From Methylococcaceae bacterium UBA2780 (GTDB taxonomy: Bacteria; Pseudomonadota; Gammaproteobacteria; Methylococcales; UBA2780): 64,000 nt of DNA. Below, piece by piece: positions 36,731-64,000 of the stretch (position 1 is its first letter; every line of letters begins with the position of its first letter). The DNA lies in the NCBI GenBank assembly GCA_002352345.1, contig DEIG01000011.1, positions 46,801 to 110,800 of the forward strand, in the 5' to 3' direction. Below the pieces are notes generated by a model. The model saw nothing but the letters and a program-made list of their open reading frames with translations, was not told where the DNA came from and ran no database searches. Both the position numbers and the translations under genes were made by a program.

Positions 36731-36809
36731 TCCTCCAGAAATCGAAGCTTTCCTTCGTCCCACAAATTAAAATCCAGCCCATCAGGGCAAATAGTCTCTT
36801 CAGACTAGT

Positions 36810-50568: not shown

Positions 50569-52272
50569 ATGTATGAACCGACTTTAGGTGCTGAACCTAG
50601 CGCTGAGTTGCCTTTTAAGCTGACGACATCGGCCATTTCTGAGTGGATTGACCAGCTACCTGTCTTAAACACGGTACACTCAGCAGAAAAGATCTACCGA
50701 GTGTTACAGTCTCTTTCTGACCTAGAAATAGAGCCAGCACTTCGGTTTCAACTCCTTGAATGTTTGAATGGGACAGCCTGCCTGCTATCCAACACTCTAG
50801 AAAAACATTTTCTGGATGCCTCCTTTCCTCTTCCTAAAAAAGAGCAAAAGCTAGCTAAGCTTTCAACACATTTGCACAGAGAGCTTACTTCCAACTACGC
50901 CATAATTACAAAAAGTGAGCCGTTTCTTGGTTCAGGTAACTTTGCTCCCTCTCAGATCAGAGCTACTGTTGGGCATGCCCTGTATTCTTTGTCTCAAGAG
51001 CAGCTTCTAATCGCTCAGCGCTATGAAGCCTGTTCAACTCGGTTTTGGACACAATTTTACGAGCTTCTTGCCTTAGTAGAACAATTAGATATTCGGCCCC
51101 TAGATAACTCAAAAGAGAACTCTATCGACCTACTAATAAAGAGGATTCTCCTTTTCTCTATATCAAACCCAAACCGCTTTTCACAGCGTGAAATCAAAGA
51201 GCTCTACTCACTCTTTAAGTTGCATGCAGAATTGGCACAGCTAGATAATCATCCCTCCAACAACCAATCTAAAAAAGCCGGATTCTTTATCGAGCTGGGG
51301 TATTTTCAGCCACCTCGGCACATAAGCCGAATAACGCCAGATTCTTCTGTCTCAACGCTAAGGTACATCCATACTAATGACTTAGTTGAGTATCTTATTG
51401 ACCAATTCAAAGCTCTGCTCAATACAGATAATGGCAACTGTCTGTTCTCCAGCAAACGAATGCTAGGGAAAGTTGTAAGAAGTCTAGGCGCTCCTGAACG
51501 GCGAAAAAACCCAAGACTCCAAAGTGAATCGCCAGCATGCACGGTTATCCCAGGCCTTGAAAACATCATCTCTTTTCTCTCAAATCCTGACAGCGCAGGA
51601 AAAACGAAAGAGGCTATTAAACCTGTACGCGCCAGTGAGCTTTGGAATGATATCCCTGACTTTGACATCATTCCATTAGACACAAACAACCTCCAGACTA
51701 ATGCATTTAGTAATAATGAGCACGGTGAAAGTATTGCACACTCAGCGCTTACAAAGTCAAAGAGCATGATTGCAAGCACTGACATTTGGGGCAAAAAACC
51801 ACTATCACGCCCTGAACTAAAAATAAAAAATCTTGACTGCAAGATATTAGATATCAGCACTAAAGGCTTCCACCTGCTCTGGATAAAAGAGGCGAATGCA
51901 AACATAAAAGTTAGCGAAATAATTTCTATATCACAAGCTGGACAGCCCATGAAAACAGGGGTTGTCCGCTGGATTGAAAATGACAGGCGGTCAGGACTCT
52001 CATTCGGAATAGAGCTACTCTCACCAGTCACTCAAATTGTAACCGCAAGCTCTCCCAAACAGCCTGACTCTGAAATAAAAGGCCTGTTAATACCAGAACT
52101 ACCCGAGAAAAACATCCAGCAAAGCATTCTAGTTTCCCCTTCAAAATACAAAACGGGTGGTTGGGTTGACCTTAAAGGGAAAACAGTCTCTAAACGCTAC
52201 CGACTACAAAAGCTGCTCGAGACCTCACCATCATTTAACCAATTTTCCCTATTTAAACTGGACAATAGCTAG
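50569..52272 (+). CDS. Hypothetical protein with C-terminal PilZ-like domain
   Basis: 567 aa. The N-terminal ~400 aa are helical and I recognise no family. The C-terminal ~110 aa have the PilZ DxSxxG motif (DISTKG, nt 51850-51867) and beta-barrel-like periodicity. The upstream RxxxR element is non-canonical (SRPELK). Confidence 0.6.
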   Translation: MYEPTLGAEPSAELPFKLTTSAISEWIDQLPVLNTVHSAEKIYRVLQSLSDLEIEPALRFQLLECLNGTACLLSNTLEKHFLDASFPLPKKEQKLAKLSTHLHRELTSNYAIITKSEPFLGSGNFAPSQIRATVGHALYSLSQEQLLIAQRYEACSTRFWTQFYELLALVEQLDIRPLDNSKENSIDLLIKRILLFSISNPNRFSQREIKELYSLFKLHAELAQLDNHPSNNQSKKAGFFIELGYFQPPRHISRITPDSSVSTLRYIHTNDLVEYLIDQFKALLNTDNGNCLFSSKRMLGKVVRSLGAPERRKNPRLQSESPACTVIPGLENIISFLSNPDSAGKTKEAIKPVRASELWNDIPDFDIIPLDTNNLQTNAFSNNEHGESIAHSALTKSKSMIASTDIWGKKPLSRPELKIKNLDCKILDISTKGFHLLWIKEANANIKVSEIISISQAGQPMKTGVVRWIENDRRSGLSFGIELLSPVTQIVTASSPKQPDSEIKGLLIPELPEKNIQQSILVSPSKYKTGGWVDLKGKTVSKRYRLQKLLETSPSFNQFSLFKLDNS

Positions 52273-52315
52273 AGAGTTACAGAGAATGAGGTGAACAAAA
52301 GGAAAATGTCTACCC

Positions 52316-54382
52316 ATGATCGCCACCAAAAAAAGGCTAATTCTTGCTATCGATGTTAAGCGGGAACAGATTGAAAACTTGGCAATGCTATGCGTAGAAG
52401 GCGATGCGAATATCACCTTTCATGCCATCTCTTCAAGTGATTACCTAAGCAATAAAGAACACCCAGAGCCTAGCCTGATTTTATTGAACATGACTCAGAC
52501 CTGCCAAGAGTCGTCAAGGGCTATTGAGGCAATCTCAGAATCACCTCACCCCATCATACTAATACACCCAACAGACTCTTGCTGCACAACATGGTGGATG
52601 CCAACATATCCTCAATTACGAGACTGCCTACCGGACAGGGATAACGAAAGAATTTCAACCGCTATTCTTCGGGAAATTGAAACGCTAGAGCTAGAACACC
52701 GTTTAAAAGAGAGCCAGTTCAAACTCAATAACATCAGCCAAGGGCTTAACTCTATTATCTCTAATGGCCATGAAGCTGCAGCCTTAATTCATAATGGCCG
52801 ATACCTAAAAGCAAACAAAGCCTATCGAAAACTTTTCTCTCTCAATAATGATCAAAGCCTCAAAATATCAGCCATACCCCAAGTTTTTATCGACATTGAG
52901 AAACCTCATTCAGCATTGGGCCCGCAGAGCAATCAAAGGCTTGAGAACTGCTCTATAACACTACAAACAGGAGAAGTTTTCCAGGCTGAAATCCTCGCGT
53001 TTCCTCTCACCATTAAAAATAAGCAGTGCCTTCAAATATTAGTTAGGAACCCATCTATAGGTAAACTTAACACTGAAGCGGCCCAACAACTCTTACACAG
53101 AGATGAGCTCACAGGCCTTATTAATAGGCAGTATTTTCTAGAGCAACTGAAAGAGCGGACAGAAAATAGAGCCTACAAAATCGACGGGGGGCTGGCTCTA
53201 ATCCTTATTGACCGCTTCAAAGCGATACGAGAGGAAAGAGGTATTCTCTATAGCGACCAACTATTAACCAAAGTTTCTCGATTGATTGAGGACAACTGCC
53301 ACCCAGATGATCTTGTTTCTCGGTTTAATGATGCTGTTTTCGCCGTTTATACCTCACGCTTAAAAGCCGAGGCATTCTCTAGCCTAATCGAACATATTCA
53401 ACAAAACACTGCTGAAACTTTGTTTGAATCGGGAGAAGATTATCTGCAAATAACCTGTAGCGTTGGAGCAAGCCTCTGGAGCGACCAGCTCTCCGATATG
53501 CAAGAGCTCATAACACGCGCAGACCAAGCATGCGCCAAAGCAGCAAAAAATGGCGGCAACCAGATTCAACTCTATAGTAGCCTGTCAACACCAATTGGTT
53601 CCGCGCTGCACGAGCAACAACAATCTGCCGAAATTTCGGCCGCTCTCAAGGAAAATCGATTCCGCCTAATTTACCAGCCAATTGTTCATCTCAATGGAGG
53701 AGAGGTAGAAAGCTATGCGGTACTTCTCCGCATGATTGATAGCGAGGGCAAACACATTTCACCCGACCAATTTATTCATCTTGCTGAAAAAACCGGGATG
53801 ATTTACAACATCGATAAATGGGTTATCCAACAAACCTGCCTGCTTATCAAGCGCGCACAAATACGCAAAAACAATCGCCTGTTCTTCGTCAAGCTATCAG
53901 GTGAGTCACTCAACAATAAGAACCTTCTACCTCACCTATACAACTGCCTTCAGGAAACAGGTACCAACGGAAAGTCGCTTGTATTCCAAATAGACTATGC
54001 CGAGTCCAGAATACGACCAGCTATTCTTAAAAACTTCATTCTTGGTATAAAAAAAGTAAACTGCCAATTTGCATTTGATCATTTTGGGTTTGGAAAATTC
54101 AGATCAATGGACTTGCAGGAACCCCCTATTGACTATATAAAAATCGATGGCGCTTTTATCCGTAATTTACTGGACAACCCAGAATATAGGGCAACAATTA
54201 AGCGTGTAATCTCCGCGTCACGCCCATTGAATATAAAAACAATTGCTAAATCAGTCGAGGATGCCAACACGCTAGCCTCTCTTTGGAATCTTGGTGTCGA
54301 TGCCGTGCAAGGCTACTTTCTCCAGGAACCTTCTGGAAACATGAAGTATGATTTTTCTTATAATGAGGATGAGAGCGCCTAA
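52316..54382 (+). CDS. FimX-like REC-PAS-GGDEF-EAL protein with degenerate GGDEF and EAL motifs
   Basis: 688 aa. The GGDEF position reads RFNDAVF (nt 53321-53341), compared with FimX RFGDSIF as I remember it. The EAL position reads ESYAVLLRM (YAVLLR at nt 53714-53731), compared with FimX ENYEVLLRL. The N-terminus looks receiver-like and lacks an obvious phospho-Asp context. Confidence 0.75.
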   Translation: MIATKKRLILAIDVKREQIENLAMLCVEGDANITFHAISSSDYLSNKEHPEPSLILLNMTQTCQESSRAIEAISESPHPIILIHPTDSCCTTWWMPTYPQLRDCLPDRDNERISTAILREIETLELEHRLKESQFKLNNISQGLNSIISNGHEAAALIHNGRYLKANKAYRKLFSLNNDQSLKISAIPQVFIDIEKPHSALGPQSNQRLENCSITLQTGEVFQAEILAFPLTIKNKQCLQILVRNPSIGKLNTEAAQQLLHRDELTGLINRQYFLEQLKERTENRAYKIDGGLALILIDRFKAIREERGILYSDQLLTKVSRLIEDNCHPDDLVSRFNDAVFAVYTSRLKAEAFSSLIEHIQQNTAETLFESGEDYLQITCSVGASLWSDQLSDMQELITRADQACAKAAKNGGNQIQLYSSLSTPIGSALHEQQQSAEISAALKENRFRLIYQPIVHLNGGEVESYAVLLRMIDSEGKHISPDQFIHLAEKTGMIYNIDKWVIQQTCLLIKRAQIRKNNRLFFVKLSGESLNNKNLLPHLYNCLQETGTNGKSLVFQIDYAESRIRPAILKNFILGIKKVNCQFAFDHFGFGKFRSMDLQEPPIDYIKIDGAFIRNLLDNPEYRATIKRVISASRPLNIKTIAKSVEDANTLASLWNLGVDAVQGYFLQEPSGNMKYDFSYNEDESA

Positions 54383-54388: not shown

Positions 54389-55282
54389 CTACTCGTTCGA
54401 AATCCCATGTGGTACATGCCCTGTTGGGACATGCTCGCTTGCAGATTCACAATGCGATCGCTGATCATCGAAAAAGATATCAGCTCCAAAGGCTTTCAGA
54501 AAAGCCCCTTTATCCATTCCCCCTAAGAACAGCGCATCATCAATCCTGATTTCCCAAGCTCTAAGCGTCCTTACTACCCGCTCATGCGCTGGGGCTGAAC
54601 GTGCTGTTACCAGCGCGGTTCGAATAGGCGACTGATCTGCATCATAATGCTTCTGAATCTGCTGTAAAGCGGCTAAAAATGATTTGAACGGTCCTCCCGT
54701 TAAAGGTCTTTTCGCCTCAGTTTTCTCATTTTGGGTAAAGGCATCTAGCCCATGCTGTTTATAAACCCGCTCAGATTCATCTGAAAAAAGCACCGCATCA
54801 CCATCAAAGGCAATCCTTAACTGCCCTGAACCGGAGGCCGTTTTCCCTGATGCGTAAATGGTTGCCGCCGCAAAACCTGCCTCTAATGTTTTTTCAACAT
54901 CATCTGCATTGGCCGATAAGAAAAGATCTGCTCCAAATGCGCGAATATAAGAAAAAGGGCTTTCACCGCTCGTAAAAGCAGCTCGGGTGATATCCAAATT
55001 ATGATGCTGAACTGAGTTGAATATTCGCAACCCAGTATCAGCACTATTTTGCGAAATCAGTATCACCTCAACCGCCGGTTGCTCTTTCGAAAAATCCTTA
55101 TTAATCGAAAGCAGCTTACAAACCAAGCCATAAGCGACTCCTGGCCGTAAAGCTTCGTCTTCATGATCGACTTGATAGCGGCAATAGGCCTCTGTCCCTT
55201 CACGCTTAAAAACATCATGGGATTCATCCAAATCAAACAGTGCTCTTGAAGAGATCGCAACAACGAGTTTTTTATCCATCAT
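54389..55282 (-). CDS. 5'-nucleotidase (cN-IA-like, PF06189-type)
   Basis: 297 aa. The N-terminus LVVAISSRALFDLDESHDVF and overall pattern match the bacterial 5'-nucleotidase family as remembered. Confidence 0.6.
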   Translation of the reverse strand: MMDKKLVVAISSRALFDLDESHDVFKREGTEAYCRYQVDHEDEALRPGVAYGLVCKLLSINKDFSKEQPAVEVILISQNSADTGLRIFNSVQHHNLDITRAAFTSGESPFSYIRAFGADLFLSANADDVEKTLEAGFAAATIYASGKTASGSGQLRIAFDGDAVLFSDESERVYKQHGLDAFTQNEKTEAKRPLTGGPFKSFLAALQQIQKHYDADQSPIRTALVTARSAPAHERVVRTLRAWEIRIDDALFLGGMDKGAFLKAFGADIFFDDQRSHCESASEHVPTGHVPHGISNE

Positions 55283-55348: not shown

Positions 55349-56785
55349 ATGCGGAAAAAATCAATCAATAAATACCTCGATAATCTTGAAAAGCATCTTT
55401 CAGAAGAAAACCCTGTTCTTCTTGATGCAACAAAAGGATTTAGAACGATTGATGAAATTGCCTCCGAAGTTGGGCTTCTGAAAGAGGGTGAATCAACTGC
55501 AAGCCAAATTCCTTGGTGGCCACTTATTTCCATTCTTGGCACCTTTTCCGCAGGAAAATCGACTTTCATCAACCACTATCTCGGCGCAAAAAGCCAGCGT
55601 ACAGGAAACCAAGCCGTTGATGATAAGTTTTCCGTTTTGTCTTTCAGTAAGACGGATGAGATGCGGACGCTACCCGGCATTGCCCTTGATGCAGACCCAC
55701 GCTTTCCTTTCTACCAAATCAGCACAGAAATTGATGAGGTAGCCGATGGAGAGGGACAGCGAATTAATGCCTACTTACAACTTAGAACCTGTCCCAGCGA
55801 CCGTCTTCGTGGAAAGATCCTAATCGACTCTCCGGGGTTCGATGCGGACTCACAAAGAACTTCAACACTCCGCATTACTCGGCATATCATTAATATTTCA
55901 GATCTTGTTCTAGTACTATTCGATGCCCGCCACCCAGAGCCTGGCGCAATGCAAGATACGCTACACCATCTTGTTGAAGAGACTATCCAGCGACCCGATT
56001 CAGAAAAATTTCTCTATATTCTCAACCAGATAGATACTACTGCGCGCGAAGATAATCCAGAGGATGTCGTAGCAGCTTGGCAGCGGGCTTTAGCTGAAAA
56101 AGGTCTGACCGCTGGCCGTTTTTATACCATTTATTCTCCAGATGCAGCGGTTCCAATTGAGGATGAAAACCGGCGCGCACGATTTGAAAGTAAACGTGAT
56201 CATGATCTTGCAGAAATTCATGACCGAATGCATCAGGTTGAAATAGAGCGTGCTTATCGAATTCTCAACGCCCTTGAAAAGACCACGCAAGAGCTTGAGA
56301 ACAGCGCTATACCTCTTATTAAAGAGCACCTTGCTGAGTGGAAAAAAAAGGTGCGTGTTGTCGATATATTCCTGCTCGCACTCCTAACCACATTAACAGT
56401 AGGACTCGGTATCAGCAGTGGTTTTTTACAGGGCAGCATTGAATCTTTAATTCAGGGAAATCCCATTCTTTCTGGAGCGGGAGCGGGACTATTCATTATC
56501 CTTTTTCTAAGCGGACACTTTTCAGCCAGGAAATATTACGCGAACAAAATTGCGCAAAAATTATCAGAGCAATCTGAAAACCTTATTTTCCTCGACCATC
56601 TTGATAAAGCCTTTTTGAAAAACACAACACCTGGCAGGATTTTCACCGGCAGTAGAGTTGTTGGTTGGAACAAAAGGGCAATGAGACGGGTGGAAGAGCT
56701 CCTTGAAGATAGCAAAGAGCTCGTTCAAAAGTTGAATGACACCTTCACTGATCCTTCAGGAAAAGTTGTTACACGTGAAAAATAG
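55349..56785 (+). CDS. Dynamin-family GTPase with C-terminal membrane hairpin
   Basis: 478 aa with G1 GTFSAGKST, G3 DSPGFD and G4-like LNQID. Two hydrophobic helices lie near residues 345-400 (VVDIFLLALLTTLTVGLGI, GAGAGLFIILFLSGHF). Confidence 0.7.
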   Translation: MRKKSINKYLDNLEKHLSEENPVLLDATKGFRTIDEIASEVGLLKEGESTASQIPWWPLISILGTFSAGKSTFINHYLGAKSQRTGNQAVDDKFSVLSFSKTDEMRTLPGIALDADPRFPFYQISTEIDEVADGEGQRINAYLQLRTCPSDRLRGKILIDSPGFDADSQRTSTLRITRHIINISDLVLVLFDARHPEPGAMQDTLHHLVEETIQRPDSEKFLYILNQIDTTAREDNPEDVVAAWQRALAEKGLTAGRFYTIYSPDAAVPIEDENRRARFESKRDHDLAEIHDRMHQVEIERAYRILNALEKTTQELENSAIPLIKEHLAEWKKKVRVVDIFLLALLTTLTVGLGISSGFLQGSIESLIQGNPILSGAGAGLFIILFLSGHFSARKYYANKIAQKLSEQSENLIFLDHLDKAFLKNTTPGRIFTGSRVVGWNKRAMRRVEELLEDSKELVQKLNDTFTDPSGKVVTREK

Positions 56786-56801: not shown

Positions 56802-58028
56802 TCACTGAGTGATCGTCTCATCAGCGATTACTAAAATAGTTGCCGTTTGATTGTAGTGCCCTAAAGAGCCACCGAGCGTCGTACCCTGCTCACCAAAGGT
56901 ATTAAACCCGATCATCGGCACCTCTTCTCCCACAACCTCTCTAACAATTTCTTGATCATCGATATCGAGCCTGCACTTAAGCAGATGCCTCAATATGCAG
57001 TTAAAGATAATAATCGCACCAATCTTCTTTGGATTACCTGCATCTTTAATTGCATTACGAAGTGTCTCCTTAAAACTCTCGACTGCAAACTCACGATCAG
57101 ACTCCATATGCGTTAGATAGGCACCTTCGGGTACCTCTGCGTAAAAAGTGAGGCTACTGTCGTCATTGGCCGTCATCACACTTTTAATTGTATATTGACC
57201 AAAAACATCCGATGACTTAATTCCCATTGGGTTTTCGGCAAATAGATCCGCATTCAGTTCATCAACACCTAACAGGGCTTTCATCGCCTCTTCGGCCTTC
57301 TGGTTATTAAGCTCGTAAACCGTTCGCCCCTCGGCCTTCGTCACTAAGAGCCCTTCATTTGATGGATAGTATGGGTGGCCCATCGCTGTCCCCATTTTCA
57401 AAGCACTGCTTAAAACAGCCATCACACCTGAATCCTCGTAAACACCGTTACAAAACTGATGCGTGACTGTATTACTTAAATCATTTGCCGTTGACCCGCC
57501 CACAACCTGACTGACTTTACCCACCTCTTTCAATAATGTTCTGAGAAAAGCCTCTTCTCCACCACTTGTTCCACTAGGGAGAACAATGTTCACGAAAGGT
57601 TTGATATGCGCCGCCTCTGATGCGCTTTTACCGCCCATCGCAATCGTCAACATCGACATCACAATCGGATTTGCCTGAACTGCGGCGTAAGCATCTTTGA
57701 CCGCTTTTTGTGCAGCTGCATCAGGATCAACCGACAACCCTTCACCCGCACCAATGCCTACACTTAAATAAGAGCTCTGAAGTGTCATCACCGCGACACT
57801 ACTATCAACGGGTGAGTCAGCAATACTGGAAAACTCACCAATTGCTGTGCCGCCAATGACTGCTGCATCACCTACAGCATTCTTCACCACATCATAAACG
57901 TCATGAGGATTATGTGTGGAGGCGCAAAAGACAATCACCAATATTGGCTTAGGGGTTGATTGCATGGCGGATTGAATCGCCTCTTCAGGGCAGGCAGAAT
58001 GGCCCAAACCCACTTTGAGTACACTCAT
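56802..58028 (-). CDS. FIST (N+C) domain sensor protein, stand-alone
   Basis: 408 aa. The layout and motifs (..VIVFCAS.., ..GGTAIGEF.., ..GFNTFGEQG..) match FIST_N plus FIST_C. A GGAGGA RBS is present. Confidence 0.7.
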   Translation of the reverse strand: MSVLKVGLGHSACPEEAIQSAMQSTPKPILVIVFCASTHNPHDVYDVVKNAVGDAAVIGGTAIGEFSSIADSPVDSSVAVMTLQSSYLSVGIGAGEGLSVDPDAAAQKAVKDAYAAVQANPIVMSMLTIAMGGKSASEAAHIKPFVNIVLPSGTSGGEEAFLRTLLKEVGKVSQVVGGSTANDLSNTVTHQFCNGVYEDSGVMAVLSSALKMGTAMGHPYYPSNEGLLVTKAEGRTVYELNNQKAEEAMKALLGVDELNADLFAENPMGIKSSDVFGQYTIKSVMTANDDSSLTFYAEVPEGAYLTHMESDREFAVESFKETLRNAIKDAGNPKKIGAIIIFNCILRHLLKCRLDIDDQEIVREVVGEEVPMIGFNTFGEQGTTLGGSLGHYNQTATILVIADETITQ

Positions 58029-58173
58029 TTATTCCTCCGGGAATACTATTTTTTATTTATCTAAGCTCTTTGGGGGTGACCCTGACGAGTCCACCTAAAA
58101 AGCTATTTTGATCAGTGCTGATCTTAAGCCAGCTATCTGTTTAAAACTTGTTAGTGCTGCAAGGAAAAAATTC

Positions 58174-58920
58174 CTAGAACAGTAACGTATCGACAAGGTC
58201 GATCATAAATTCCATCTCTTCCTCATCCATCTCTTCAAAACCACTAAAACCAAGAGACTTCAGAACACCTTGCCCTTTTTCGTCTTCATTCATAGACAGC
58301 AAAGCCTGCCTAAAGCCATCTTTCTTATCAGCCAAAGCTGGGCCAATCATAAGAGAATGATGCACAACCTGTATTTGACTGCTAACGAGCGGTTTAAGCT
58401 GTTTGCGAACCATCGAAGAGAGGTCATTAAATGCTTCAGCAAGGAAAAAACCGACATCACTATTACCGCGCAGCAACTCTTTTGCCACCAAAACATAGCT
58501 ATCACAGCTTTTCATCTCAATATTCGTCTTATCAAGATCAGCAGGCTCAAGCATGATCATCCCCATCATATGGACATCAGGATCATCGGTTGAAGCCAGT
58601 TTTATGCCTGACTGCAGCTCCTCTACACAATTAATTGGGCTCTCAGCATTGACCGCAATAATTGCCTCATCCGACTTTGACGCGGGTTTAACAAGTGGTG
58701 AAAAACCTTTCTCACGAACCAACATTGCTGCGTCATAAGGGTTCGCAAAAATCAGATCAACTTTGCCCTCTTCAATCGCTTTTCGTTGGGATTCAAAATC
58801 ATTATAAAGCTCCAGATGGAAACCTTCTCCCAGCTGTTTTTGTATCCAAGTATTAAAAATAAACCAGCCTGATAGGTGGTCCGGCGTAAAGTCTGGGCTT
58901 ACCGTAAAATTATATGGCAT
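58174..58920 (-). CDS. PhnD-like type-2 binding-protein fold, no signal peptide
   Basis: 248 aa. DLIFANPYDAAMLVREKGFSPLVKP and the overall pattern resemble phosphonate/phosphite-binding PhnD proteins. The N-terminus MPYNFTVSPDF has no signal sequence. Confidence 0.5.
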   Translation of the reverse strand: MPYNFTVSPDFTPDHLSGWFIFNTWIQKQLGEGFHLELYNDFESQRKAIEEGKVDLIFANPYDAAMLVREKGFSPLVKPASKSDEAIIAVNAESPINCVEELQSGIKLASTDDPDVHMMGMIMLEPADLDKTNIEMKSCDSYVLVAKELLRGNSDVGFFLAEAFNDLSSMVRKQLKPLVSSQIQVVHHSLMIGPALADKKDGFRQALLSMNEDEKGQGVLKSLGFSGFEEMDEEEMEFMIDLVDTLLF

Positions 58921-58950
58921 CTTATTCTCTCCGTAATCTGATAAGGCTGC

Positions 58951-59424
58951 TTAAAAGAGTGTTGGGTAGAGCGCGATGCACTCTTCAACTTTTTTACGAG
59001 AAGGTTTTCTACGAACAGAAGTAAACCCAACGACCTCGCCATTCCTCACATTTGGAATTGCGGTTGCCTTAACCCAATAATAGCCACCATCTTTACGCAG
59101 ATTTTTGACGTACCCCTGCCACTTTTCACCACGAGCACTCGTGTCCCACAAATCTTTAAACGCTGCCGGCGGCATATCAGGGTGGCGCAAAATAGAGTGA
59201 GGCGCACCAATCAATTCCTCTTCTGTATACCCAGACATATCGATAAAGGACTGGTTCACATGGGTAATCATCCCCTTTGTATCGGTTCTCGAAACAATCA
59301 AGCGACCATCTGGATAAGGCGATTCAATTTCTGAATAAAGTATCTTACGAGGACCCCAGCCGTATAGTTCCAGAGTTACTTCCTGATATTCACCCGTGAT
59401 ATCTTCCGGTTTCATATCTTCCAT
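58951..59424 (-). CDS. Stand-alone Aer-type (FAD-binding) PAS domain protein
   Basis: 157 aa. GAPHSILRHPDMPPAAFKDLWDT...GEKWQGYVKNLRKDGGYYWVKATAIP closely matches the Aer N-terminal PAS signature (PHN.VRHPDMP.AAF.DMW......W.G.VKNR.K.G..YWV). Confidence 0.8.
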   Translation of the reverse strand: MEDMKPEDITGEYQEVTLELYGWGPRKILYSEIESPYPDGRLIVSRTDTKGMITHVNQSFIDMSGYTEEELIGAPHSILRHPDMPPAAFKDLWDTSARGEKWQGYVKNLRKDGGYYWVKATAIPNVRNGEVVGFTSVRRKPSRKKVEECIALYPTLF

Positions 59425-59463
59425 ATCATCCCTCCCGCTCTAGTGATAGAGCAATCATATCTG

Positions 59464-59826
59464 TTAGAGCAATTTAGCAATATTTTCAGCAGCCCTTTTA
59501 ACATCGAGAAAGATCAATCCCAATTTTGCATTAGGTTTTGCCATCACGGTCAAAACAGCCTCATCGCCTGCATAGGTCATCAAAACGTAGCCGTTATCAC
59601 CTTTAATCAGAACCTGTTCCAATGCGCCTCTCTCTAACTCCTGAGCGGTTCGGTCACCCAAAGAGAGCATTGCTGCACTCATTGCGCCAACCCGATCCTC
59701 ATCCATCGCTTGAGGAAGCACTGCGGCCATCATCAAACCATCTGTAGAAATGACACCTGATGCCTCAATATCGGCTGATGTTCCATTCAAATCCGTTAAA
59801 ACGGAAGTCAACATATCTGCTCTCAT
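59464..59826 (-). CDS. Roadblock/LC7 (MglB-like) domain protein
   Basis: 120 aa with the typical Roadblock pattern (..ASGVISTDGLMMAAV...DRVGAMSAAMLSLG....LE.G.LEQVLIKGDNGYVLM...). Confidence 0.8.
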   Translation of the reverse strand: MRADMLTSVLTDLNGTSADIEASGVISTDGLMMAAVLPQAMDEDRVGAMSAAMLSLGDRTAQELERGALEQVLIKGDNGYVLMTYAGDEAVLTVMAKPNAKLGLIFLDVKRAAENIAKLL

Positions 59827-59877
59827 AACGCTCTACTCCTAACTTTCTATAATTTCTCTGGAATACAAAAACTTAAA

Positions 59878-60528
59878 TTACAACTCAACTGAACTACTTG
59901 CATAGCGCCGACTCAACATCCAAATAAGCTCGACAAATTCCGGCCGGTTCAAGCAGGGAATACCTTCCATCACCAAGACAAAACGCTGTTTACCTATGTA
60001 CAGAGGCCAGAAGCCAATCTTGCTATGGCCGGCTGCATCGACAATCGACCAGGCACTACTTGCCAAACCAAGATTATTAACCAGTAACCCCGACCGCCGT
60101 GCGTGTAAGCTAGCCAGCTCCGCACTTAAGGCCGATAACTCTTCTGCCACCTCATGCGGAAAGCCACTCGATGCTAGATAAAAGCCCTGCTCATCACCCA
60201 AAAGCGCCTTACCACTATTTGATAGTCGACCAAGTAGCTCTGGCAATACCTCTTCAAGCGGGCTATCCAAAACTGCTCGCTCTGAATCTAACCCTTCAAC
60301 CCATGCCAAAGACTGTAGATGTTTTAACAGTTCAAGCGTCTCATCTTCGCTCTCCAAACCTGATAGCGCTGCGAGTGTTTCCGCGGTTAACGCAGGGGTT
60401 TTCTCTTGGCCCAACAAATTACGCAATAATGCTTTAGTCGAATTCCCCTCAGCTGCCGAAACTGCGCTGTAAGCACCTCCTGGCGTTGGGTGAAGAAACA
60501 ATCCTTCGGTTAAAACTAATTCAGTCAT
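59878..60528 (-). CDS. Hypothetical protein, C-terminal half possibly a divergent Roadblock-like fold
   Basis: I place the start at ATG 60528 (MTELVL), 1 nt after the upstream stop, with GGAGGA inside the upstream gene's 3' end. The ORF-track start at 60618 would overlap the GTPase gene by 89 nt. The C-terminal ~110 aa show strand-helix-strand-strand-helix periodicity resembling Roadblock. This is inference only. Confidence 0.6.
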   Translation of the reverse strand: MTELVLTEGLFLHPTPGGAYSAVSAAEGNSTKALLRNLLGQEKTPALTAETLAALSGLESEDETLELLKHLQSLAWVEGLDSERAVLDSPLEEVLPELLGRLSNSGKALLGDEQGFYLASSGFPHEVAEELSALSAELASLHARRSGLLVNNLGLASSAWSIVDAAGHSKIGFWPLYIGKQRFVLVMEGIPCLNRPEFVELIWMLSRRYASSSVEL

Positions 60529-60529
60529 T

Positions 60530-61069
60530 TCATTCCTCCACCAATCCCGGATCAAGGGTATAAAGTAATGCTTGCACAAGTAGCGAGACGTCTTCTGACT
60601 CCCGCGCATCAACCTCAAACAAAGGTGGATTCAGCCCCATTCCCTTCAAGTGAAGGTGATAATCAGTGATTGTTGGGCGAGGATTTTTATCCATCTGTGT
60701 CACTCCAACAACGACAGCTGTCTTATCGATAAACTCAGAAAAAGAGTCCATAAAAAAGCGTAAATCAACAAAAGGGTCTGTACGAGTATTGTCTAGCAGT
60801 ACAACCAGACCAATCCCACCTGTTGTCAATATATCCCACATAAAATCAAACCGCTCCTGCCCAGGTGTTCCATACAGATGAATTGCTTCACCACCCTCAA
60901 GACGCATCACTCCGTAGTCCATCGCAACCGTTGTCGCTTTCTTACGTTCACGCGTCATATCACTCGCAGATTCATCTGTTGTGATCGGTGCATCATCGCT
61001 AATTGAGCTGATCGCTGTTGTCTTTCCTGCACCAACAGGACCTGTAAAAATAATCTTGTAATTACTCAT
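60530..61069 (-). CDS. Small Ras-like GTPase, MglA/CvnD (COG2229)-like
   Basis: 179 aa with G1 GPVGAGKT, G3 GTPGQERF (the Asp of DxxGQ is replaced, as in MglA-type and conservon GTPases) and G4 TQMD. Confidence 0.8.
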   Translation of the reverse strand: MSNYKIIFTGPVGAGKTTAISSISDDAPITTDESASDMTRERKKATTVAMDYGVMRLEGGEAIHLYGTPGQERFDFMWDILTTGGIGLVVLLDNTRTDPFVDLRFFMDSFSEFIDKTAVVVGVTQMDKNPRPTITDYHLHLKGMGLNPPLFEVDARESEDVSLLVQALLYTLDPGLVEE

Positions 61070-61078
61070 CTCGTCTAT

Positions 61079-62272
61079 TTATCCAATTTTTAAACGATCT
61101 AGGATTTTGCCAAACAGGCCGCGCTTTTTTGGTTTTTGAACAGGCTCAGGCGCAACAATCACATCAGCTTGCCGTTTAACCTGTCCAGCTACCCCAAGTG
61201 CTCTTGCTGCGCTATAAAAAGAGAACACATATTGCTGAGGCACATTAAGCACCCTAGCAATCTCCATTAGAGACCTAGGATGTTCCATCATCAACGCTGC
61301 AATCCTCATCGCATGAGGAAACAGCATCAAACGCGTCATATTTGGCCAGTGACGCAGATAAACAGGGCGCTCCAGATCTACCCCCAGCGGCACTCGCCCT
61401 TGAGAGGTCCAGAGCGATACTTTCCACAGAAAAGAGTCGATATTTTGAAAACCATCTTTATCGCTGATATCAAGACCATCTACATCATTTACAACCGAAA
61501 TCGTCATTCCTGAACCTTTTCCATCCAACGCAGGGTCCGCACCATTCAGAACCTTCAGTGGCACCCTGCATGCAGCCTGCAGCTGTTTATCATTGGCATC
61601 GAGCCAAACTTCGTTTGTTCTCGGAAAAATCAGTAAAGGTTTCCAGCTGCCATCCAATTGAAGTATCTGGTTTTTGTTCAAGGCAACCTTGCAAGCTGAC
61701 TGAAAATAACCCTGCAGATAGCTTTTCGGGTCGTAATGCGCGTCGTTAACTTGCCTCTCATCACTCATATCAACAGGCTGCAGTGCACCAATAAATGAGA
61801 TAAAACTTTTCTCATCCAATTGCATTGCTGAACGATGAGTAGAAGGAGGCTTACTTTGGCGCTTAACACTCTTTGTTACAGCCGGTTGCGCCACCTGCTC
61901 AGAAACTGGTTCTACAAAAGCCTGCTTTTCTGCTTTCAGCTCTTCTCGACAGCCTGCTTTAACCTTATCCAACACATTCATCAGTGCTTTAGGTTGAAGC
62001 GGCTTTTTAACAAAAAAACTATCCTCATCATCTCTATCTTTCAATGACAAAAGAATAAATTGGTGCTCAGGAAATTTTTCACGCTGCTGTCTATAAAGAG
62101 AGTCTGAGTCAACCGCATCCATATCAACAATGCTGACGGTTGCCGTCCCATCCCCGACAATTTCACAGCTATTTTTACAAGGCCCCTGAAAGAACAGCTG
62201 AAGCATATGTTGCGTTCGACTATCCATGCCAACCGTTGTAACGAGGAGAGAGGGCTGAGCTTTCTTGCTCAT
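61079..62272 (-). CDS. Receiver-like N-terminal domain protein with unrecognised C-terminal domain
   Basis: 397 aa. Residues ~8-110 have a receiver-like layout (LLVTTVGMDSRT ... VSIVDMD ... FVKKPLQPKAL). A Pro/Lys/Ser-rich linker follows, then a ~230-aa domain I cannot assign. Confidence 0.6.
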   Translation of the reverse strand: MSKKAQPSLLVTTVGMDSRTQHMLQLFFQGPCKNSCEIVGDGTATVSIVDMDAVDSDSLYRQQREKFPEHQFILLSLKDRDDEDSFFVKKPLQPKALMNVLDKVKAGCREELKAEKQAFVEPVSEQVAQPAVTKSVKRQSKPPSTHRSAMQLDEKSFISFIGALQPVDMSDERQVNDAHYDPKSYLQGYFQSACKVALNKNQILQLDGSWKPLLIFPRTNEVWLDANDKQLQAACRVPLKVLNGADPALDGKGSGMTISVVNDVDGLDISDKDGFQNIDSFLWKVSLWTSQGRVPLGVDLERPVYLRHWPNMTRLMLFPHAMRIAALMMEHPRSLMEIARVLNVPQQYVFSFYSAARALGVAGQVKRQADVIVAPEPVQKPKKRGLFGKILDRLKIG

Positions 62273-63015
62273 TTATCTAACTCCTCTGATAATTTCTGTT
62301 GTAGTTCATTCCATTGGCCTAAAAATGAAGCGGCCTCATCGCCCAGTTTCCCTCTCATTCTCTTTAATGATGCTAAATCTCGTGTTGATTTGTAAATAGC
62401 AAGAAGGTCGTTATGAAGTGCCTCCCTTGAAGGGCTATCAAGCAGCCCCTTTTCAAGAATCTGTTGAGCTTGCTCTATCTGGCTATACTCAAGACATTCA
62501 TGAGCCTCTTCTAACGGGTCGCGATCAATAGAGTTTTCTCCATTCCTGCCTTCAACAGTTTTAACCAAGTCCAAACAACCATTCACGCCTTTGCCTAAAA
62601 CAGAGCCCGGTAAATCCGGAAGCCTGTTCTTACTCAACTCCTTTGCTGTATAGAGTGAAGCCAATTGCTCAAATTGAATTGACTGAAGGCCGCCCCTTGC
62701 ACCCAACAACAACCGCTTGAAAAGTGCTCGACCCGAACCATCTAATGCAATCCATAAATCCAGTAGGGCTGCAAAAAGCAAGCCGTGATCTCCTTGGTCG
62801 TATTGAAACCAAATACGCTGAATGTGATTTTTAATATTTGAAGGATTGCGTGAAACTTCAGAACAAAGAAAATCTGACACCTTATTCTTGCGATCATCCG
62901 CCACCGCCAATCTCAATCCTGACGCATCTGCTATCTGAAAAATAGCGTCATGAATTACCCCTGATGAGGTTCCGTTATCTGATTGATCCGGATCGAAAAA
63001 CAAAGAGTTATTCAT
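62269..63015 (-). CDS. Hypothetical helical protein (first gene of the GTPase operon)
   Basis: 248 aa. I recognise no family. The C-terminal ~80 aa look like TPR-type helical repeats (LEEAHECLEYSQIEQAQQILEKGLL). Its stop overlaps the next start (ATGA at 62269-62272). Confidence 0.55.
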   Translation of the reverse strand: MNNSLFFDPDQSDNGTSSGVIHDAIFQIADASGLRLAVADDRKNKVSDFLCSEVSRNPSNIKNHIQRIWFQYDQGDHGLLFAALLDLWIALDGSGRALFKRLLLGARGGLQSIQFEQLASLYTAKELSKNRLPDLPGSVLGKGVNGCLDLVKTVEGRNGENSIDRDPLEEAHECLEYSQIEQAQQILEKGLLDSPSREALHNDLLAIYKSTRDLASLKRMRGKLGDEAASFLGQWNELQQKLSEELDK

Positions 63016-63242: not shown

Positions 63243-64000
63243 ATGCTTAATCTCTACCTAAATGGACTCGTCAAGTGGCGCTGGGCGATCATTCTAGTAA
63301 CACTGATTCTTGTCGGTGTTCTCTCAAGTGGGGCCCGATTTTTGGGGTTTACGAATGATTACAGAATTTTTTTTAGCGATGATAATCCGCATCTTTTAGC
63401 ACTTGAAACACTCCAAAACACCTACACAAAAGATGACACTATCCTCTTCATTATTACTCCCAAAGATGGAAAGGTATTTACGCCAGGAACACTTGCCAGC
63501 ATCGAATGGCTAACCAACCAGACCTGGTCAATTCCCTATACCCAGCGAGTCGACTCATTACAGAATTTCCAGTATAGCTATGGAAAAAATGATGAGCTGA
63601 TCGTTCGAGATCTTTACCAAGATGCCCTTTCACTCAAAGAAAATGAGCTGACTGAAATAGCCAGAATAGCCTTAAATGAGCCTTTACTAAATGGCCGCTT
63701 AATCTCGAGAGACCGTAAAGTTGCAGGCCTCAATGTAACAGTGCAGCTTCCCGGAATTGATGAACAAAAAGAGTTTCCAGAAGTTGCTAATTACGCTAGA
63801 AACCTTGCACGTGAACTGGAAAAAGATAACCCAAACCTACAGATACGCCTAACCGGTGGCGTTATGATCGGTAATGCCTTTCCAGAAGCATCATTGCACG
63901 ACATTGAAACATTAATTCCCATCATGTTTACCATTGTCTTCATTGTTCTAGCACTAATGCTTCGCTCGCTCTCAGCCATGATCTGGGCCCTACTGATCAT
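63243..64000 (+). CDS. RND-superfamily/MMPL-type exporter, N-terminal part (3' end outside window)
   Basis: This ORF is not in the supplied track because it has no stop in the window. My own translation from ATG 63243 is open to the window end: MLNLYLNGLVKWRWAIILVTLILVGVL...IRLTGGVMIGNAF...IPIMFTIVFIVLALMLRSLSAMIWALLI. TM1 followed by a large periplasmic loop and then a TM bundle is typical of COG1033/MMPL exporters. Confidence 0.6.
   Translation, partial: MLNLYLNGLVKWRWAIILVTLILVGVLSSGARFLGFTNDYRIFFSDDNPHLLALETLQNTYTKDDTILFIITPKDGKVFTPGTLASIEWLTNQTWSIPYTQRVDSLQNFQYSYGKNDELIVRDLYQDALSLKENELTEIARIALNEPLLNGRLISRDRKVAGLNVTVQLPGIDEQKEFPEVANYARNLARELEKDNPNLQIRLTGGVMIGNAFPEASLHDIETLIPIMFTIVFIVLALMLRSLSAMIWALLI

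What the first reader, a model, noticed from the sequence alone, without database searches (positions are those of the whole stretch)
56802..63015. Eight-gene operon: small GTPase, Roadblock proteins and three stand-alone sensor modules, with no recognisable output domain
Seen in sequence: eight co-directional minus-strand genes with very tight junctions (a 4-nt ATGA overlap, then gaps of 9, 1, 51, 39, 30 and 145 nt). In order they encode a 248-aa helical protein, a 397-aa receiver-like protein with an unassignable C-terminal domain, and a 179-aa P-loop GTPase (GPVGAGKT / GTPGQ / TQMD). These are followed by a 216-aa protein whose C-terminal half looks Roadblock-like, a canonical 120-aa Roadblock/LC7 protein and a 157-aa Aer-type PAS domain. 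The last two are a PhnD-like binding-protein fold lacking a signal peptide and a FIST protein. None carries a kinase, cyclase/phosphodiesterase, MCP or DNA-binding domain that I can recognise. Established knowledge: small GTPase plus Roadblock pairs act as switch/GAP modules in Myxococcus MglA-MglB, where the receiver-domain protein RomR is part of the GEF. They also occur in actinobacterial conservons (CvnA-D) and in eukaryotic Rag-Ragulator. Inference: this may be a GTPase-switch signalling module fed by cytoplasmic redox (FAD-PAS) and small-molecule (binding-protein fold, FIST) sensors. Its output would be protein-protein interaction rather than phosphorylation. I do not know of a characterised gammaproteobacterial system with this architecture. 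A FimV/HubP hub, a FimX-like protein and a PilZ-like protein lie within 30 kb, so a cell-polarity or pilus role is a speculative possibility.
Basis: partly seen in the sequence, partly recalled or inferred. Interest (0 to 1): 0.8.

Follow-up and report, generated by a model that had tools for sequence, protein, structure and literature searches.

The report
Sensor-equipped Group 3 MglA GTPase operon
This is a real, widely conserved operon built around a small Ras-like GTPase and two Roadblock proteins. Its core was catalogued in 2014 as a "Group 3 MglA system", but this version also carries its own oxygen/redox-type sensor proteins, and nobody yet knows what it controls.

Summary
The eight genes exist exactly as described, but they are not one unit of eight.

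- **Core (genes A–E).** A is a TPR-like helical protein. B has a receiver-like domain, a variable linker and a winged helix. C is the GTPase. D is a divergent Roadblock protein and E a canonical one. The set is conserved in order in most of 80 gammaproteobacterial genomes, mostly Methylococcales, and in Neisseria.
- **Prior description.** B–E match the "Group 3 MglA system" (DUF>MglA>MglB>MglB) of Wuichet & Søgaard-Andersen 2014. Their table lists methanotroph loci with this arrangement. The GTPase has that group's hallmarks: GTPGQ, a G4 motif without lysine, and a DAR G5 motif.
- **Sensor pair (F, G).** An Aer-type PAS protein and a signal-peptide-less PhnD-like protein follow E in 43 of 53 testable loci. 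A protoglobin gene is interleaved in seven loci.
- **FIST gene.** It is linked only in close relatives that share the whole neighbourhood.
- **New here.** Gene A belongs to the core. The sensors belong to the module. B's C-terminus resembles the conservon protein CvnC/DUF742, a reported exchange factor, in a profile–profile comparison (probability about 60%).

Most likely this is a conservon-like G-protein switch with accessory cytoplasmic sensors and an unknown output. I rate it a new variant of a known but uncharacterised kind, of moderate interest.

The parts
62269..63015 (-). Gene A: 248-aa helical protein with a TPR-like C-terminal region. It overlaps B by 4 nt (ATGA).
   Evidence: ORF. 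The window protein has no Pfam family above threshold. 17 of 29 family members weakly match TPR_19. The family profile hits a TPR-like PDB chain at 8e-5. A lies next to B in 63 of 79 loci. The A profile also hits the ORF just upstream of the B homolog in Neisseria (E 1.3e-15).
61079..62272 (-). Gene B: 397-aa protein. In order it has a receiver-like domain (about residues 9-118), a disordered variable linker (about 117-150), an alpha/beta subdomain, a three-helix winged helix (about 318-375) and a conserved amphipathic C-terminal helix (GLFGKILDRLK). It corresponds to the 'DUF' of Group 3 MglA systems.
   Evidence: No Pfam or NCBIfam family. AlphaFold2 models: pLDDT 80 for the full protein and 84.8 (pTM 0.81) for the C-terminal half. 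Foldseek matches CheY-type receivers and gives only weak winged-helix matches. D52, K90 and P91 are conserved. hhalign to DUF742/CvnC: probability 57-63%, P 7e-5, against a best shuffle score of 15 versus 34.8 observed. Terminal helix hydrophobic moment 0.60.
60530..61069 (-). Gene C: 179-aa MglA-family small GTPase of the Group 3 type. Motifs: G1 GPVGAGKT, G2 TT, G3 GTPGQ, G4 TQMD, G5 DAR.
   Evidence: Pfam ATP_bind_1 8e-13 and Ras 6e-5. Best PDB matches are Rab GTPases at 1e-6; MglA scores 4e-3. All G motifs are invariant or nearly so across 34 orthologs. It is 60% identical to the Neisseria gonorrhoeae homolog and 33-37% to actinobacterial CvnD.
59878..60528 (-). Gene D: 216-aa protein with an unassigned N-terminal region of about 90 aa and a divergent Roadblock-like C-terminal half (the first 'MglB'). 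It is the ortholog of Neisseria NMB0478.
   Evidence: Robl_LC7 is sub-threshold in 20 of 32 members and LAMTOR5 in 14 of 32. hhalign to CvnB: probability 64%, P 6.6e-5, residues 87-143. There is no profile match to E itself. A GGAGGA ribosome-binding site precedes the ATG at 60528. The published NMB0478 primer maps to the start of the D homolog in L085.
59464..59826 (-). Gene E: 120-aa canonical Roadblock/LC7 (MglB/CvnB-type) protein. It is the most conserved gene of the set.
   Evidence: Pfam Robl_LC7 2.5e-16. hhalign to CvnB: probability 98%, E 2e-14. Median identity across genomes is 86%.
58951..59424 (-). Gene F: 157-aa stand-alone Aer-type PAS protein. By homology it probably binds FAD.
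   Evidence: PAS_3 1.5e-18. 2.2e-36 to the E. coli Aer PAS structure 8dik, with the RHPDMP and VKNxRKxGxYWV stretches aligned. F follows E in 43 of 53 loci, with a median gap of about 36 nt.
58174..58920 (-). Gene G: 248-aa PhnD-like type-2 binding-protein fold without a signal peptide. It is a candidate cytoplasmic ligand sensor.
   Evidence: Phosphonate-bd 3e-42, covering residues 5-235. TIGR01098 scores below its cutoff. The closest solved relative is the arsenate sensor ArrX at 1.7e-4. G always accompanies F, at gaps of 15-35 nt.
56802..58028 (-). Gene H: 408-aa FIST_N/FIST_C protein, distantly NosP-like. It is co-directional after a 145-nt gap. It is probably a separate unit, or at most a lineage-specific add-on.
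   Evidence: FIST 4e-31 and FIST_C 6e-24. NosP model NF041558 scores 137 bits against a cutoff of 450. H is absent from all 80 genome loci. It is present only in two close relatives that share the whole neighbourhood.

Best explanation
Genes A-E form a Group 3 MglA-type G-protein switch. This is the beta/gammaproteobacterial counterpart of the actinobacterial conservon.

**Proposed roles**
- C is the GTP/GDP switch.
- D and E are two different Roadblock proteins. They most likely form a heterodimeric platform that acts as the GTPase-activating partner, as MglB does for MglA and MfpD does for MfpB.
- B couples a receiver-like domain, through a flexible linker, to a CvnC/DUF742-like winged-helix module with a terminal amphipathic helix. 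It is the best candidate for the exchange factor or nucleotide-state-specific partner of C.
- A is a TPR-like adaptor or effector.
- In this lineage and most methanotroph relatives, the module has acquired stand-alone cytoplasmic sensors: an Aer-type PAS protein, a PhnD-like binding protein and sometimes a protoglobin. These would modulate the GAP/GEF balance by protein-protein contact, much as GAF-type CvnF accessory proteins modulate conservons.
- The output is not encoded by a conserved neighbour. It is either GTP-bound C acting on unlinked targets or B's winged helix.
- The FIST gene is a neighbour rather than a core part.

**Shown:** gene content, conservation, folds and motifs.
**Inferred:** who activates whom, what is sensed, and the output.
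For: **Membership of the core**
- The GTPase motifs GTPGQ, TQMD and DAR match the published Group 3 description.
- The gene order DUF>MglA>MglB>MglB is listed for Methylomonas and Methylomicrobium in Table S2.
- C is 60% identical to the Neisseria homolog and 33-37% to CvnD.
- Profiles of A-E hit Neisseria in the same order.

**Conservation**
- C-D-E follow B in 60 of 72 loci.
- A is adjacent to B in 63 of 79.
- F-G follow E in 43 of 53.
- Flanking genes are not conserved.

**Sensors belong to the module**
- Protoglobin genes lie between D and E, or between E and F, in 7 loci.
- F-G accompany the module outside Methylococcales, in Chromatiales, Spongiibacteraceae and Competibacteraceae.

**Roadblock assignments**
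- E versus CvnB: 98%.
- D versus CvnB: 64%.

**B's fold**
- Receiver fold.
- Winged helix plus terminal helix aligned co-linearly to DUF742, far above shuffled controls.

**Functional analogies from the literature**
- MfpC (DUF742) is a GEF for MfpB (PMC11343762).
- MfpD (Roadblock) is its GAP (PMC9769811).
- CvnF accessory proteins act as sensors or modulators (PMC12236503).
Against: - No biochemical or genetic data exist for this module.
- The B-DUF742 link rests on profile-profile comparison only. HMM-to-sequence scores are insignificant, so it could be generic winged-helix similarity.
- D and E show no detectable similarity to each other. A heterodimer is therefore an inference.
- B's receiver-like domain keeps D52, S76 and K90-P91 but has only one N-terminal acidic residue, and it fails the Pfam receiver model.
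- No kinase is linked in any locus.
- F-G are missing from about a fifth of loci and from Neisseria, so they are accessory.
- One transcript was not shown. The promoter/terminator scan was uninformative.
Confidence: 0.6

Rival explanations
1. B is a DNA-binding, response-regulator-like transcription factor. The GTPase/Roadblock pair and the sensors control its activity, so the output is gene expression. This is the 2014 suggestion.
For: - B has a receiver-like N-terminus and a three-helix winged helix.
- The winged-helix segment is mildly basic, with median pI 9.3 and net charge +2.
- Wuichet & Søgaard-Andersen proposed this reading.
- The Neisseria D ortholog NMB0478 bound DNA in a South-western overlay.
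Against: - The presumed recognition helix (QQYVFSFYSAARALG) is largely hydrophobic and aromatic, and invariant. This fits a protein-binding surface better.
- B's profile finds none of the many DNA-binding winged-helix proteins in the PDB (best E 0.5).
- No conserved operator-like motif was found upstream of A in 68 loci.
- The overlay DNA binding in Neisseria was non-specific and concerned D, not B.
Confidence: 0.25
2. It is a cell-polarity or type IV pilus controller that works like Myxococcus MglA/MglB/RomR. GTP-bound C would mark a pole and recruit pilus machinery through the TPR-like protein A.
For: - MglA-family GTPase with Roadblock partners.
- B has a RomR-like layout (receiver, disordered linker, C-terminal region). 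This is my reading of the architecture.
- TPR proteins are MglA effectors in Myxococcus (SgmX, PMC7519303).
- FimV, a FimX-like GGDEF-EAL protein and a FimW-like gene lie nearby in this window.
- A mutation in an orphan Group 3 mglB of Snodgrassella changed soft-agar colony edges.
Against: - The pilus genes are neighbours only in this lineage. In Methylomagnum the flanks are a porin (BBP2) and DUF2959 on one side and ferritin genes on the other, with groES/groEL and uvrA further upstream, and no flank gene is conserved.
- C lacks the Group 1 hallmarks, TVPGQ and the arginine finger.
- A Neisseria NMB0478 null mutant had normal aggregation, pili and competence.
Confidence: 0.12
3. The eight genes are a chance juxtaposition of unrelated units: an MglA module, a separate PAS/PhnD sensor pair and a FIST gene, with no functional coupling.
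For: - FIST is not co-conserved.
- There is a 145-nt gap before FIST.
- F-G are absent from about 20% of loci and from Neisseria.
Against: - F-G follow E at a median of about 36 nt in 43 of 53 loci, across several orders, while all other neighbours vary.
- Protoglobin sensor genes are inserted inside the module, between D and E.
Confidence: 0.08

Closest known systems
Group 3 MglA systems (Wuichet & Søgaard-Andersen 2014, Genome Biol Evol 7:57; PMC4316618)
   Same: - Gene order DUF>MglA>MglB>MglB.
- The GTPase is about 178-179 aa with GTPGQ, a G4 motif lacking lysine and a DAR G5 motif.
- The 'DUF' has a receiver-like N-terminus, a variable linker and a winged-helix C-terminus, with no Pfam match.
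- Hosts are beta- and gammaproteobacteria, and methanotroph entries appear in their Table S2.
   Different: - That survey did not report the upstream TPR-like gene A.
- It did not report the PAS/PhnD-like pair, the protoglobin insertions or a link between the DUF and CvnC.
- No Group 3 system has a defined function.
Actinobacterial conservon / AGPS (CvnA-D; MfpB-E)
   Same: - GTPase with GTPGQ and DAR motifs (33-37% identical).
- CvnB-type Roadblock (E, probability 98%).
- A possible CvnC/DUF742-like module in B.
- Stand-alone accessory sensor proteins next to the core: GAF/CvnF there, PAS, protoglobin and PhnD-like here.
   Different: - There is no CvnA histidine-kinase-like membrane sensor. 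A receiver-like domain is fused to the CvnC-like part instead.
- There are two different Roadblock proteins.
- An extra TPR-like gene is present.
- The hosts are Proteobacteria.
- The gene order differs.
Myxococcus xanthus MglA/MglB/RomR-RomX polarity module (Group 1 MglA)
   Same: A Ras-like GTPase with a Roadblock GAP, and a receiver-domain protein with a disordered linker as partner.
   Different: - Group 1 has TVPGQ and an intrinsic arginine finger. C has neither.
- MglB is a homodimer encoded by one gene.
- The partner genes are unlinked.
- The output, motility, is known there and is not indicated here.
Eukaryotic Rag-Ragulator / GATOR1
   Same: Small GTPases dock on Roadblock heterodimers. 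D-family members weakly match LAMTOR5. The best, though weak, structural matches of B's C-terminus are chains of the SEA/GATOR1 complexes.
   Different: These are resemblances at the level of fold only, with non-significant E-values. There is no evidence of orthology.

Membership tests
MglA family, Group 3 system | G3 motif GTPGQ, not DxxGQ or TVPGQ | tested here: met
   LYGTPGQ. T68 and G70 are invariant and Q71 nearly so in 34 orthologs. Definition.
MglA family, Group 3 system | G4 deviates from [NT]KxD by lacking the lysine, and G5 is DAR | tested here: met
   G4 is TQMD (T124, M126, D127). G5 is D154-A155-R156, conserved. Definition.
MglA family, Group 3 system | G2 has threonine in place of the Group 1 arginine finger | tested here: met
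   T46-T47 in KKATTVAMDYG. T47 is invariant.
MglA family, Group 3 system | Neighbourhood of a conserved unknown protein, then MglA, then one or two MglB genes | tested here: met
   B>C>D>E in the window and in 60 of 72 loci. Table S2 lists DUF>MglA>MglB>MglB for Methylomonas methanica and Methylomicrobium alcaliphilum.
MglA family, Group 3 system | The unknown protein has a receiver-like N-terminus, a variable linker and a winged-helix-like C-terminus, with no Pfam match | tested here: met
   No Pfam family. Receiver fold. Variable low-confidence linker. Three-helix winged helix.
MglA family, Group 3 system | Placement inside the Group 3 clade of an MglA phylogeny | not tested
   No tree was built. 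Proxy: C is 60% identical to the N. gonorrhoeae homolog. The corresponding meningococcal locus is listed as Group 3 in Table S2. C is 38% identical to Ralstonia/Acinetobacter homologs and 33-37% to CvnD.
Actinobacterial conservon (CvnA-D) | CvnA: a membrane histidine-kinase-like sensor encoded first in the operon | tested here: not met
   No kinase gene lies in the window operon, and none is among the conserved neighbours of the 80 loci.
Actinobacterial conservon (CvnA-D) | CvnB Roadblock/LC7 protein | tested here: met
   E versus a CvnB alignment: probability 98.3%, E 2e-14.
Actinobacterial conservon (CvnA-D) | CvnC: DUF742 (PF05331) protein | tested here: inconclusive
   No Pfam DUF742 hit in 37 B-family members. 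hhalign of B's C-terminus against 8 DUF742 proteins gives probability 57-63%, P 7e-5. HMM-to-sequence scores are not significant.
Myxococcus-type MglA/MglB (Group 1) | TVPGQ G3 motif and an intrinsic arginine finger in G2 | tested here: not met
   C has GTPGQ, and TT in G2.
NosP (FIST-type NO sensor), for gene H | Score at or above the NCBIfam NF041558 equivalog cutoff | tested here: not met
   136.7 bits against a cutoff of 450. H is a FIST_N/FIST_C protein, but NosP identity and haem binding are untested.
Aer-type FAD-binding PAS, for gene F | Close sequence similarity to the Aer PAS domain, including the RHPDMP and VKNxRKxGxYWV segments | tested here: met
   2.2e-36 to 8dik (E. coli Aer PAS) with those segments aligned. 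FAD binding itself cannot be tested here.
PhnD / phosphonate ABC-transporter binding protein, for gene G | Periplasmic binding protein with a signal peptide that reaches the TIGR01098 cutoff | tested here: not met
   The Pfam fold family is met (145 bits). TIGR01098 scores 25 bits against a cutoff of 112. The domain starts at residue 5, so there is no signal peptide. No transporter genes are adjacent.

The most novel reading that the evidence does not exclude
This would be a kinase-free, cytoplasmic 'G-protein-coupled' oxygen/redox sensing pathway. A flavin-PAS protein, a protoglobin and a binding-protein-fold sensor would act directly on the GEF/GAP machinery of a small GTPase. That machinery would be a receiver-CvnC fusion plus a Roadblock heterodimer. 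It would set the nucleotide state of the GTPase in bacteria that live at oxic-anoxic interfaces, such as methanotrophs and sulfur-oxidising symbionts. Group 3 MglA systems and actinobacterial conservons would then be two versions of one ancestral signalling device.
Probability: 0.3. Interest if true: 0.75.

Novelty: new variant of a known kind. Interest (0 to 1): 0.5.

Why it matters
Bacterial Ras-like GTPases are understood mechanistically in only two settings: Myxococcus polarity and, partly, actinobacterial conservons. Group 3 MglA systems occur in Neisseria, Xanthomonas, Stenotrophomonas, Acidithiobacillus and methanotrophs, and they have no known input or output.

This variant carries its candidate inputs in the operon: an Aer-type PAS protein, a PhnD-like protein and sometimes a protoglobin. 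That makes the question "what signal drives a bacterial small GTPase?" directly testable with a handful of purified proteins.

The suggested receiver-CvnC fusion would also tie Group 3 systems to conservons, where the kinase has no known receiver partner. For methanotroph biology, it points to a possible oxygen/redox response route.

Tried and rejected
- **Genome scan with the full B alignment.** It failed because no stretch was conserved enough. A narrower alignment worked.
- **Profile comparison of D with E.** No similarity. D's Roadblock nature had to be shown through Pfam sub-threshold recurrence and CvnB.
- **Profile comparison of D with DUF742.** Nothing.
- **PDB profile searches.** Nothing useful for D or for B's C-terminus.
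- **Foldseek on full-length B.** It returned only receiver domains. Foldseek on the C-terminal model gave only weak winged-helix hits.
- **Promoter/terminator scan.** Fewer promoter-like sites than in shuffled sequence and no informative terminators.
- **Rfam.** Only four tRNAs, far from the operon.
- **Search for a shared operator upstream of gene A.** The one recurrent motif, TTGATTACTTG, lies inside the coding sequence and encodes LITC.
- **Weak BstB (sterol-binding) hit of G** (E 0.018). Rejected as insignificant.
- **Weak GUN4 hit of A**. Rejected in favour of the TPR-like reading.
- **Locus-tag check in Neisseria.** NMB0475 turned out to be an rRNA methyltransferase. The meningococcal GTPase is therefore NMB0477 and NMB0478 is D. 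The tag NMB0476 in Table S2 probably denotes the first gene of the system.

Full report
**1. Observation**

The ORF list shows eight co-directional minus-strand genes at exactly the reported coordinates. The junctions are also as reported: a 4-nt ATGA overlap, then gaps of 9, 1, 51, 39, 30 and 145 nt. I label the genes A to H in transcription order.

| Gene | Coordinates | Length |
|---|---|---|
| A | 62269-63015 | 248 aa |
| B | 61079-62272 | 397 aa |
| C | 60530-61069 | 179 aa |
| D | 59878-60528 | 216 aa |
| E | 59464-59826 | 120 aa |
| F | 58951-59424 | 157 aa |
| G | 58174-58920 | 248 aa |
| H | 56802-58028 | 408 aa |

- The 216-aa form of D is the right one. Its ATG is preceded by GGAGGA, and most other genes also have Shine-Dalgarno sequences.
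- Base composition is even across the region, so nothing suggests recent import.

- C is a P-loop small GTPase (ATP_bind_1 8e-13, Ras 6e-5).
- E is Roadblock/LC7 (2.5e-16).
- F is a PAS protein (PAS_3 1.5e-18).
- G belongs to Phosphonate-bd (3e-42). The match starts at residue 5, which leaves no room for a signal peptide.
- H has FIST_N and FIST_C. It resembles the NO sensor NosP but scores far below that model's cutoff (137 versus 450 bits).
- A and B match nothing. D matches Roadblock only weakly (E 0.016).

**2. Conservation**

A search with B found 147 relatives. All are unnamed or "hypothetical", and the named ones are mostly methanotrophs. A scan of one genome per species returned 80 loci.

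- Most are Methylococcales.
- Others are Thiodiazotropha, Chromatiales, Spongiibacteraceae, Competibacteraceae and Denitromonas.

I compared all eight window proteins with these loci.

| Test | Result |
|---|---|
| C-D-E follow B | 60 of 72 loci with enough sequence |
| A lies next to B | 63 of 79 |
| F-G follow E | 43 of 53 (median E-to-F gap about 36 nt; F-to-G gaps 15-35 nt) |
| H present | 0 of 80 |

Clustering all ORFs of the loci showed no other conserved neighbour. The set is therefore self-contained.

Median identity to the window proteins is uneven:

| A | B | C | D | E | F | G |
|---|---|---|---|---|---|---|
| 32% | 37% | 72% | 55% | 86% | 76% | 62% |

H follows G only in two close relatives (B 67% and 77% identical). 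Those relatives also share the window's other neighbours: an MMPL transporter, a dynamin-like GTPase, a 5'-nucleotidase and, on the longer contig, the GGDEF-EAL gene. That is inherited synteny, not evidence of coupling.

Two accessory genes recur.

- A protoglobin (PF11563) lies between D and E, or between E and F, in seven loci.
- A PF06189 5'-nucleotidase lies downstream in eight. The window has the same nucleotidase at 54389-55282.

**3. What the parts are**

*C, the GTPase.* All five nucleotide-binding motifs are conserved in 34 orthologs: GPVGAGKT, T46-T47, GTPGQ, TQMD and DAR. The nearest solved relatives are Rab GTPases (1e-6). Thermus MglA scores 4e-3.

*E, the canonical Roadblock.* E aligns to conservon CvnB proteins at 98% probability.

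*D, the divergent Roadblock.*
- D shows no profile similarity to E.
- However, 20 of 32 family members weakly match Robl_LC7 and 14 match LAMTOR5.
- Residues 87-143 align to the first half of CvnB (64% probability, P 6.6e-5).
- D is therefore a divergent Roadblock with an extra N-terminal region of about 90 aa.

*B, the multi-domain partner.* B was modelled with good confidence: pLDDT 80 for the full protein and 84.8 (pTM 0.81) for the C-terminal half.
- Residues 9-118 form a CheY-like receiver fold.
- D52, S76 and K90-P91 are conserved, but there is only one N-terminal acidic residue.
- A disordered, length-variable linker follows.
- Next come an alpha/beta subdomain with no structural match and a three-helix winged helix.
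- After a short linker there is a conserved, strongly amphipathic terminal helix, GLFGKILDRLK (hydrophobic moment 0.60).
- Foldseek gave only weak winged-helix matches. The best are chains of the SEA/GATOR1 complexes (E 0.1).

*A, the helical protein.* A's C-terminal part is TPR-like.

*F, the PAS protein.* F matches the E. coli Aer PAS domain at 2.2e-36, with the RHPDMP and VKNxRKxGxYWV segments aligned.

*G, the binding-protein fold.* G's closest solved relative is ArrX, a PhnD-like arsenate sensor (1.7e-4).

**4. It has been catalogued before**

Wuichet & Søgaard-Andersen (2014, PMC4316618) split the MglA family into five groups. Their Group 3 has these features:

- It is almost exclusive to beta- and gammaproteobacteria.
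- The GTPase has GTPGQ, a G4 motif lacking lysine and a DAR G5 motif.
- The unknown protein has a receiver-like N-terminus, a variable linker and a winged-helix C-terminus, with no Pfam match.

Their Table S2 lists DUF>MglA>MglB>MglB for these genomes:

- Methylomonas methanica MC09 (a 179-aa GTPase)
- Methylomicrobium alcaliphilum
- Neisseria
- Acidithiobacillus
- Leptothrix
- Teredinibacter

B-C-D-E fits every listed feature.

A direct check was possible. A gonococcal chromosome filed among the plasmids carries a homolog 60% identical to C. Ralstonia and Acinetobacter homologs are 38% identical, and actinobacterial CvnD homologs 33-37%. Profile HMMs of A, B, C, D and E all hit that Neisseria locus in the same order. 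So gene A, which the 2014 survey did not report, belongs to the core as far away as the Betaproteobacteria. Neisseria has no F or G.

**5. Experimental scraps**

- *NMB0478.* A published primer maps to the start of the gonococcal D homolog, so NMB0478 is the D ortholog. The protein was recovered from the meningococcal inner-membrane fraction and bound DNA non-specifically in an overlay assay. Its null mutant had normal aggregation, pili and competence (PMC2885667).
- *NMB0477.* This "GTP-binding protein" rose 5.1-fold when the Fur-controlled small RNA NrrF was absent, and it was a predicted NrrF target (PMC5586341).
- *Snodgrassella.* A mutation in an orphan Group 3 mglB improved colonisation of a non-native bee and changed colony edges on soft agar (PMC11112851).
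- I found nothing on methanotrophs.

**6. Link to conservons**

I built a DUF742 (CvnC) alignment from eight annotated conservons on actinobacterial plasmids.

- hhalign against B's C-terminal half gave 57-63% probability, P 7e-5 and score 34.8.
- The alignment is co-linear. It runs from the second and third helices of the winged helix through to the terminal helix (GLFGKILDRLK against LLEAVLxGLRAL).
- Thirty column shuffles and a reversed control never exceeded score 15.
- HMM-to-sequence scores are not significant.

The link is therefore suggestive, not established.

If the link is real, B is a receiver-like domain fused to a CvnC-like module. The published functional analogies would then be:

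- MfpC (DUF742) is an exchange factor for the conservon GTPase MfpB (PMC11343762).
- MfpD (Roadblock) is its GAP (PMC9769811).
- GAF-type CvnF accessory proteins modulate the system when the kinase lacks its own sensor (PMC12236503).
- GAF genes were indeed adjacent to the GTPase gene in three of the conservons I fetched.

**7. Most likely mechanism**

*Shown:*
- a conserved five-gene G-protein core;
- a frequently attached two-gene sensor pair;
- sensor genes interleaved within the module in some genomes;
- intact GTPase motifs;
- two distinct Roadblock proteins;
- a receiver-linker-winged-helix partner.

*Inferred:*
- D and E form a Roadblock heterodimer that acts as GAP or platform for C.
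- B's CvnC-like half binds C and promotes exchange or reads its nucleotide state, under control of its receiver-like domain.
- A is an adaptor or effector.
- F (flavin redox), protoglobin (gas) and G (small ligand) bias the cycle by direct contact.

The output remains open. The transcription-factor reading of B cannot be excluded. Its winged helix is mildly basic, but the presumed recognition helix is hydrophobic, and I found no shared operator.

A pilus or polarity role is the weakest option. The pilus genes near the operon are lineage-specific neighbours (FimV at 34229-36763, a FimW-like gene, and GGDEF-EAL). The Neisseria mutant was also normally piliated.

**8. Verdict**

The GTPase switch with attached sensors holds. 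FIST does not belong to the module. A possible output domain was overlooked. The core is not unprecedented.
- It is a new variant of a known, bioinformatically defined but functionally uncharacterised kind.
- New elements are gene A as a core member, the sensor complement, and the tentative receiver-CvnC reading that ties Group 3 systems to conservons.
- Interest is moderate. A specialist would not be surprised by the core. The in-operon sensors would make a long-open question, what feeds bacterial small GTPases, experimentally approachable.

Noticed in passing
window 54389-55282 (-); also L007 12841-13824 and L040 14878-15774, among others: A PF06189 5'-nucleotidase (E 6e-136) lies about 1.5 kb downstream of the operon in the window. 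The same family directly follows the module in eight other genomes. This could be inherited synteny, or a loose link to nucleotide metabolism.
   Followed up: partly
window 55349-56785 (+): A 478-aa dynamin-family GTPase (Dynamin_N 4e-12) with a hydrophobic C-terminal region lies convergent to the FIST gene. It is conserved at this position only in the close relatives.
   Followed up: no
window 50569-54382 (+) and 34229-36763 (-): A cluster of pilus-regulation genes. A 567-aa protein has a counterpart in L095 that carries FimW_N/FimW_C. A 688-aa GGDEF-EAL (FimX-like) protein follows it. Further away is a FimV homolog (FimV_N 1e-39), next to a hybrid histidine kinase with an Hpt domain at 31488-34208.
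   Followed up: partly
window about 63245-64000 (+), runs off the window; L003 6721-9030: An MMPL/RND-type transporter gene is divergently transcribed from the operon. Beyond the window it is followed by a TP_0789-like/DUF1329 lipoprotein gene. The pair looks like a lipid (hopanoid- or sterol-type) export system. G's weak hit to the sterol-binding protein BstB (E 0.018) is insignificant.
   Followed up: no
L085 (N. gonorrhoeae NZ_CP119140.1) 5100-8560: In this gonococcal record the homologs of B, C and D are each split across reading frames, and the A region also appears fragmented. They are either pseudogenes or sequencing errors. The 2.17-Mb record is labelled as a plasmid but is evidently the chromosome.
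   Followed up: partly
P0122, P0128, P0184, P0210 (489-511 aa); P0144, P0150, P0159 (297-359 aa): The representative search shows fused forms of the GTPase. Some carry it at the C-terminus of proteins of about 500 aa, possibly DUF-MglA fusions. Others carry it at the N-terminus with 120-200 extra residues. One of these is described by its source as SRP-receptor-beta / 'regulator of Ras-like GTPase', which suggests a GTPase-Roadblock fusion.
   Followed up: no
L081 and L084 (Denitromonas); L060, L070: These are orphan B homologs with no detectable GTPase or Roadblock genes beside them. In Denitromonas (L081) the B homolog sits between a 935-aa protein I did not characterise and a large GGDEF-EAL protein with four internal repeats.
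   Followed up: partly
L071 and L074 (one Methylomarinum chromosome, OZ255706.1): The chromosome carries two copies of the A-B pair. One is alone. The other is followed by C-D-E and then an IS-type integrase (rve) inserted before F-G.
   Followed up: no
L012 13255-14124: In one Methylococcales genome that lacks F-G, a 289-aa protein with a canonical receiver domain (Response_reg 1e-25) follows E. This hints that phosphorelay components can also be attached to the module.
   Followed up: no
window 898-1571 (-): Four tRNA genes lie in a row. They are the only Rfam matches in the window.
   Followed up: no
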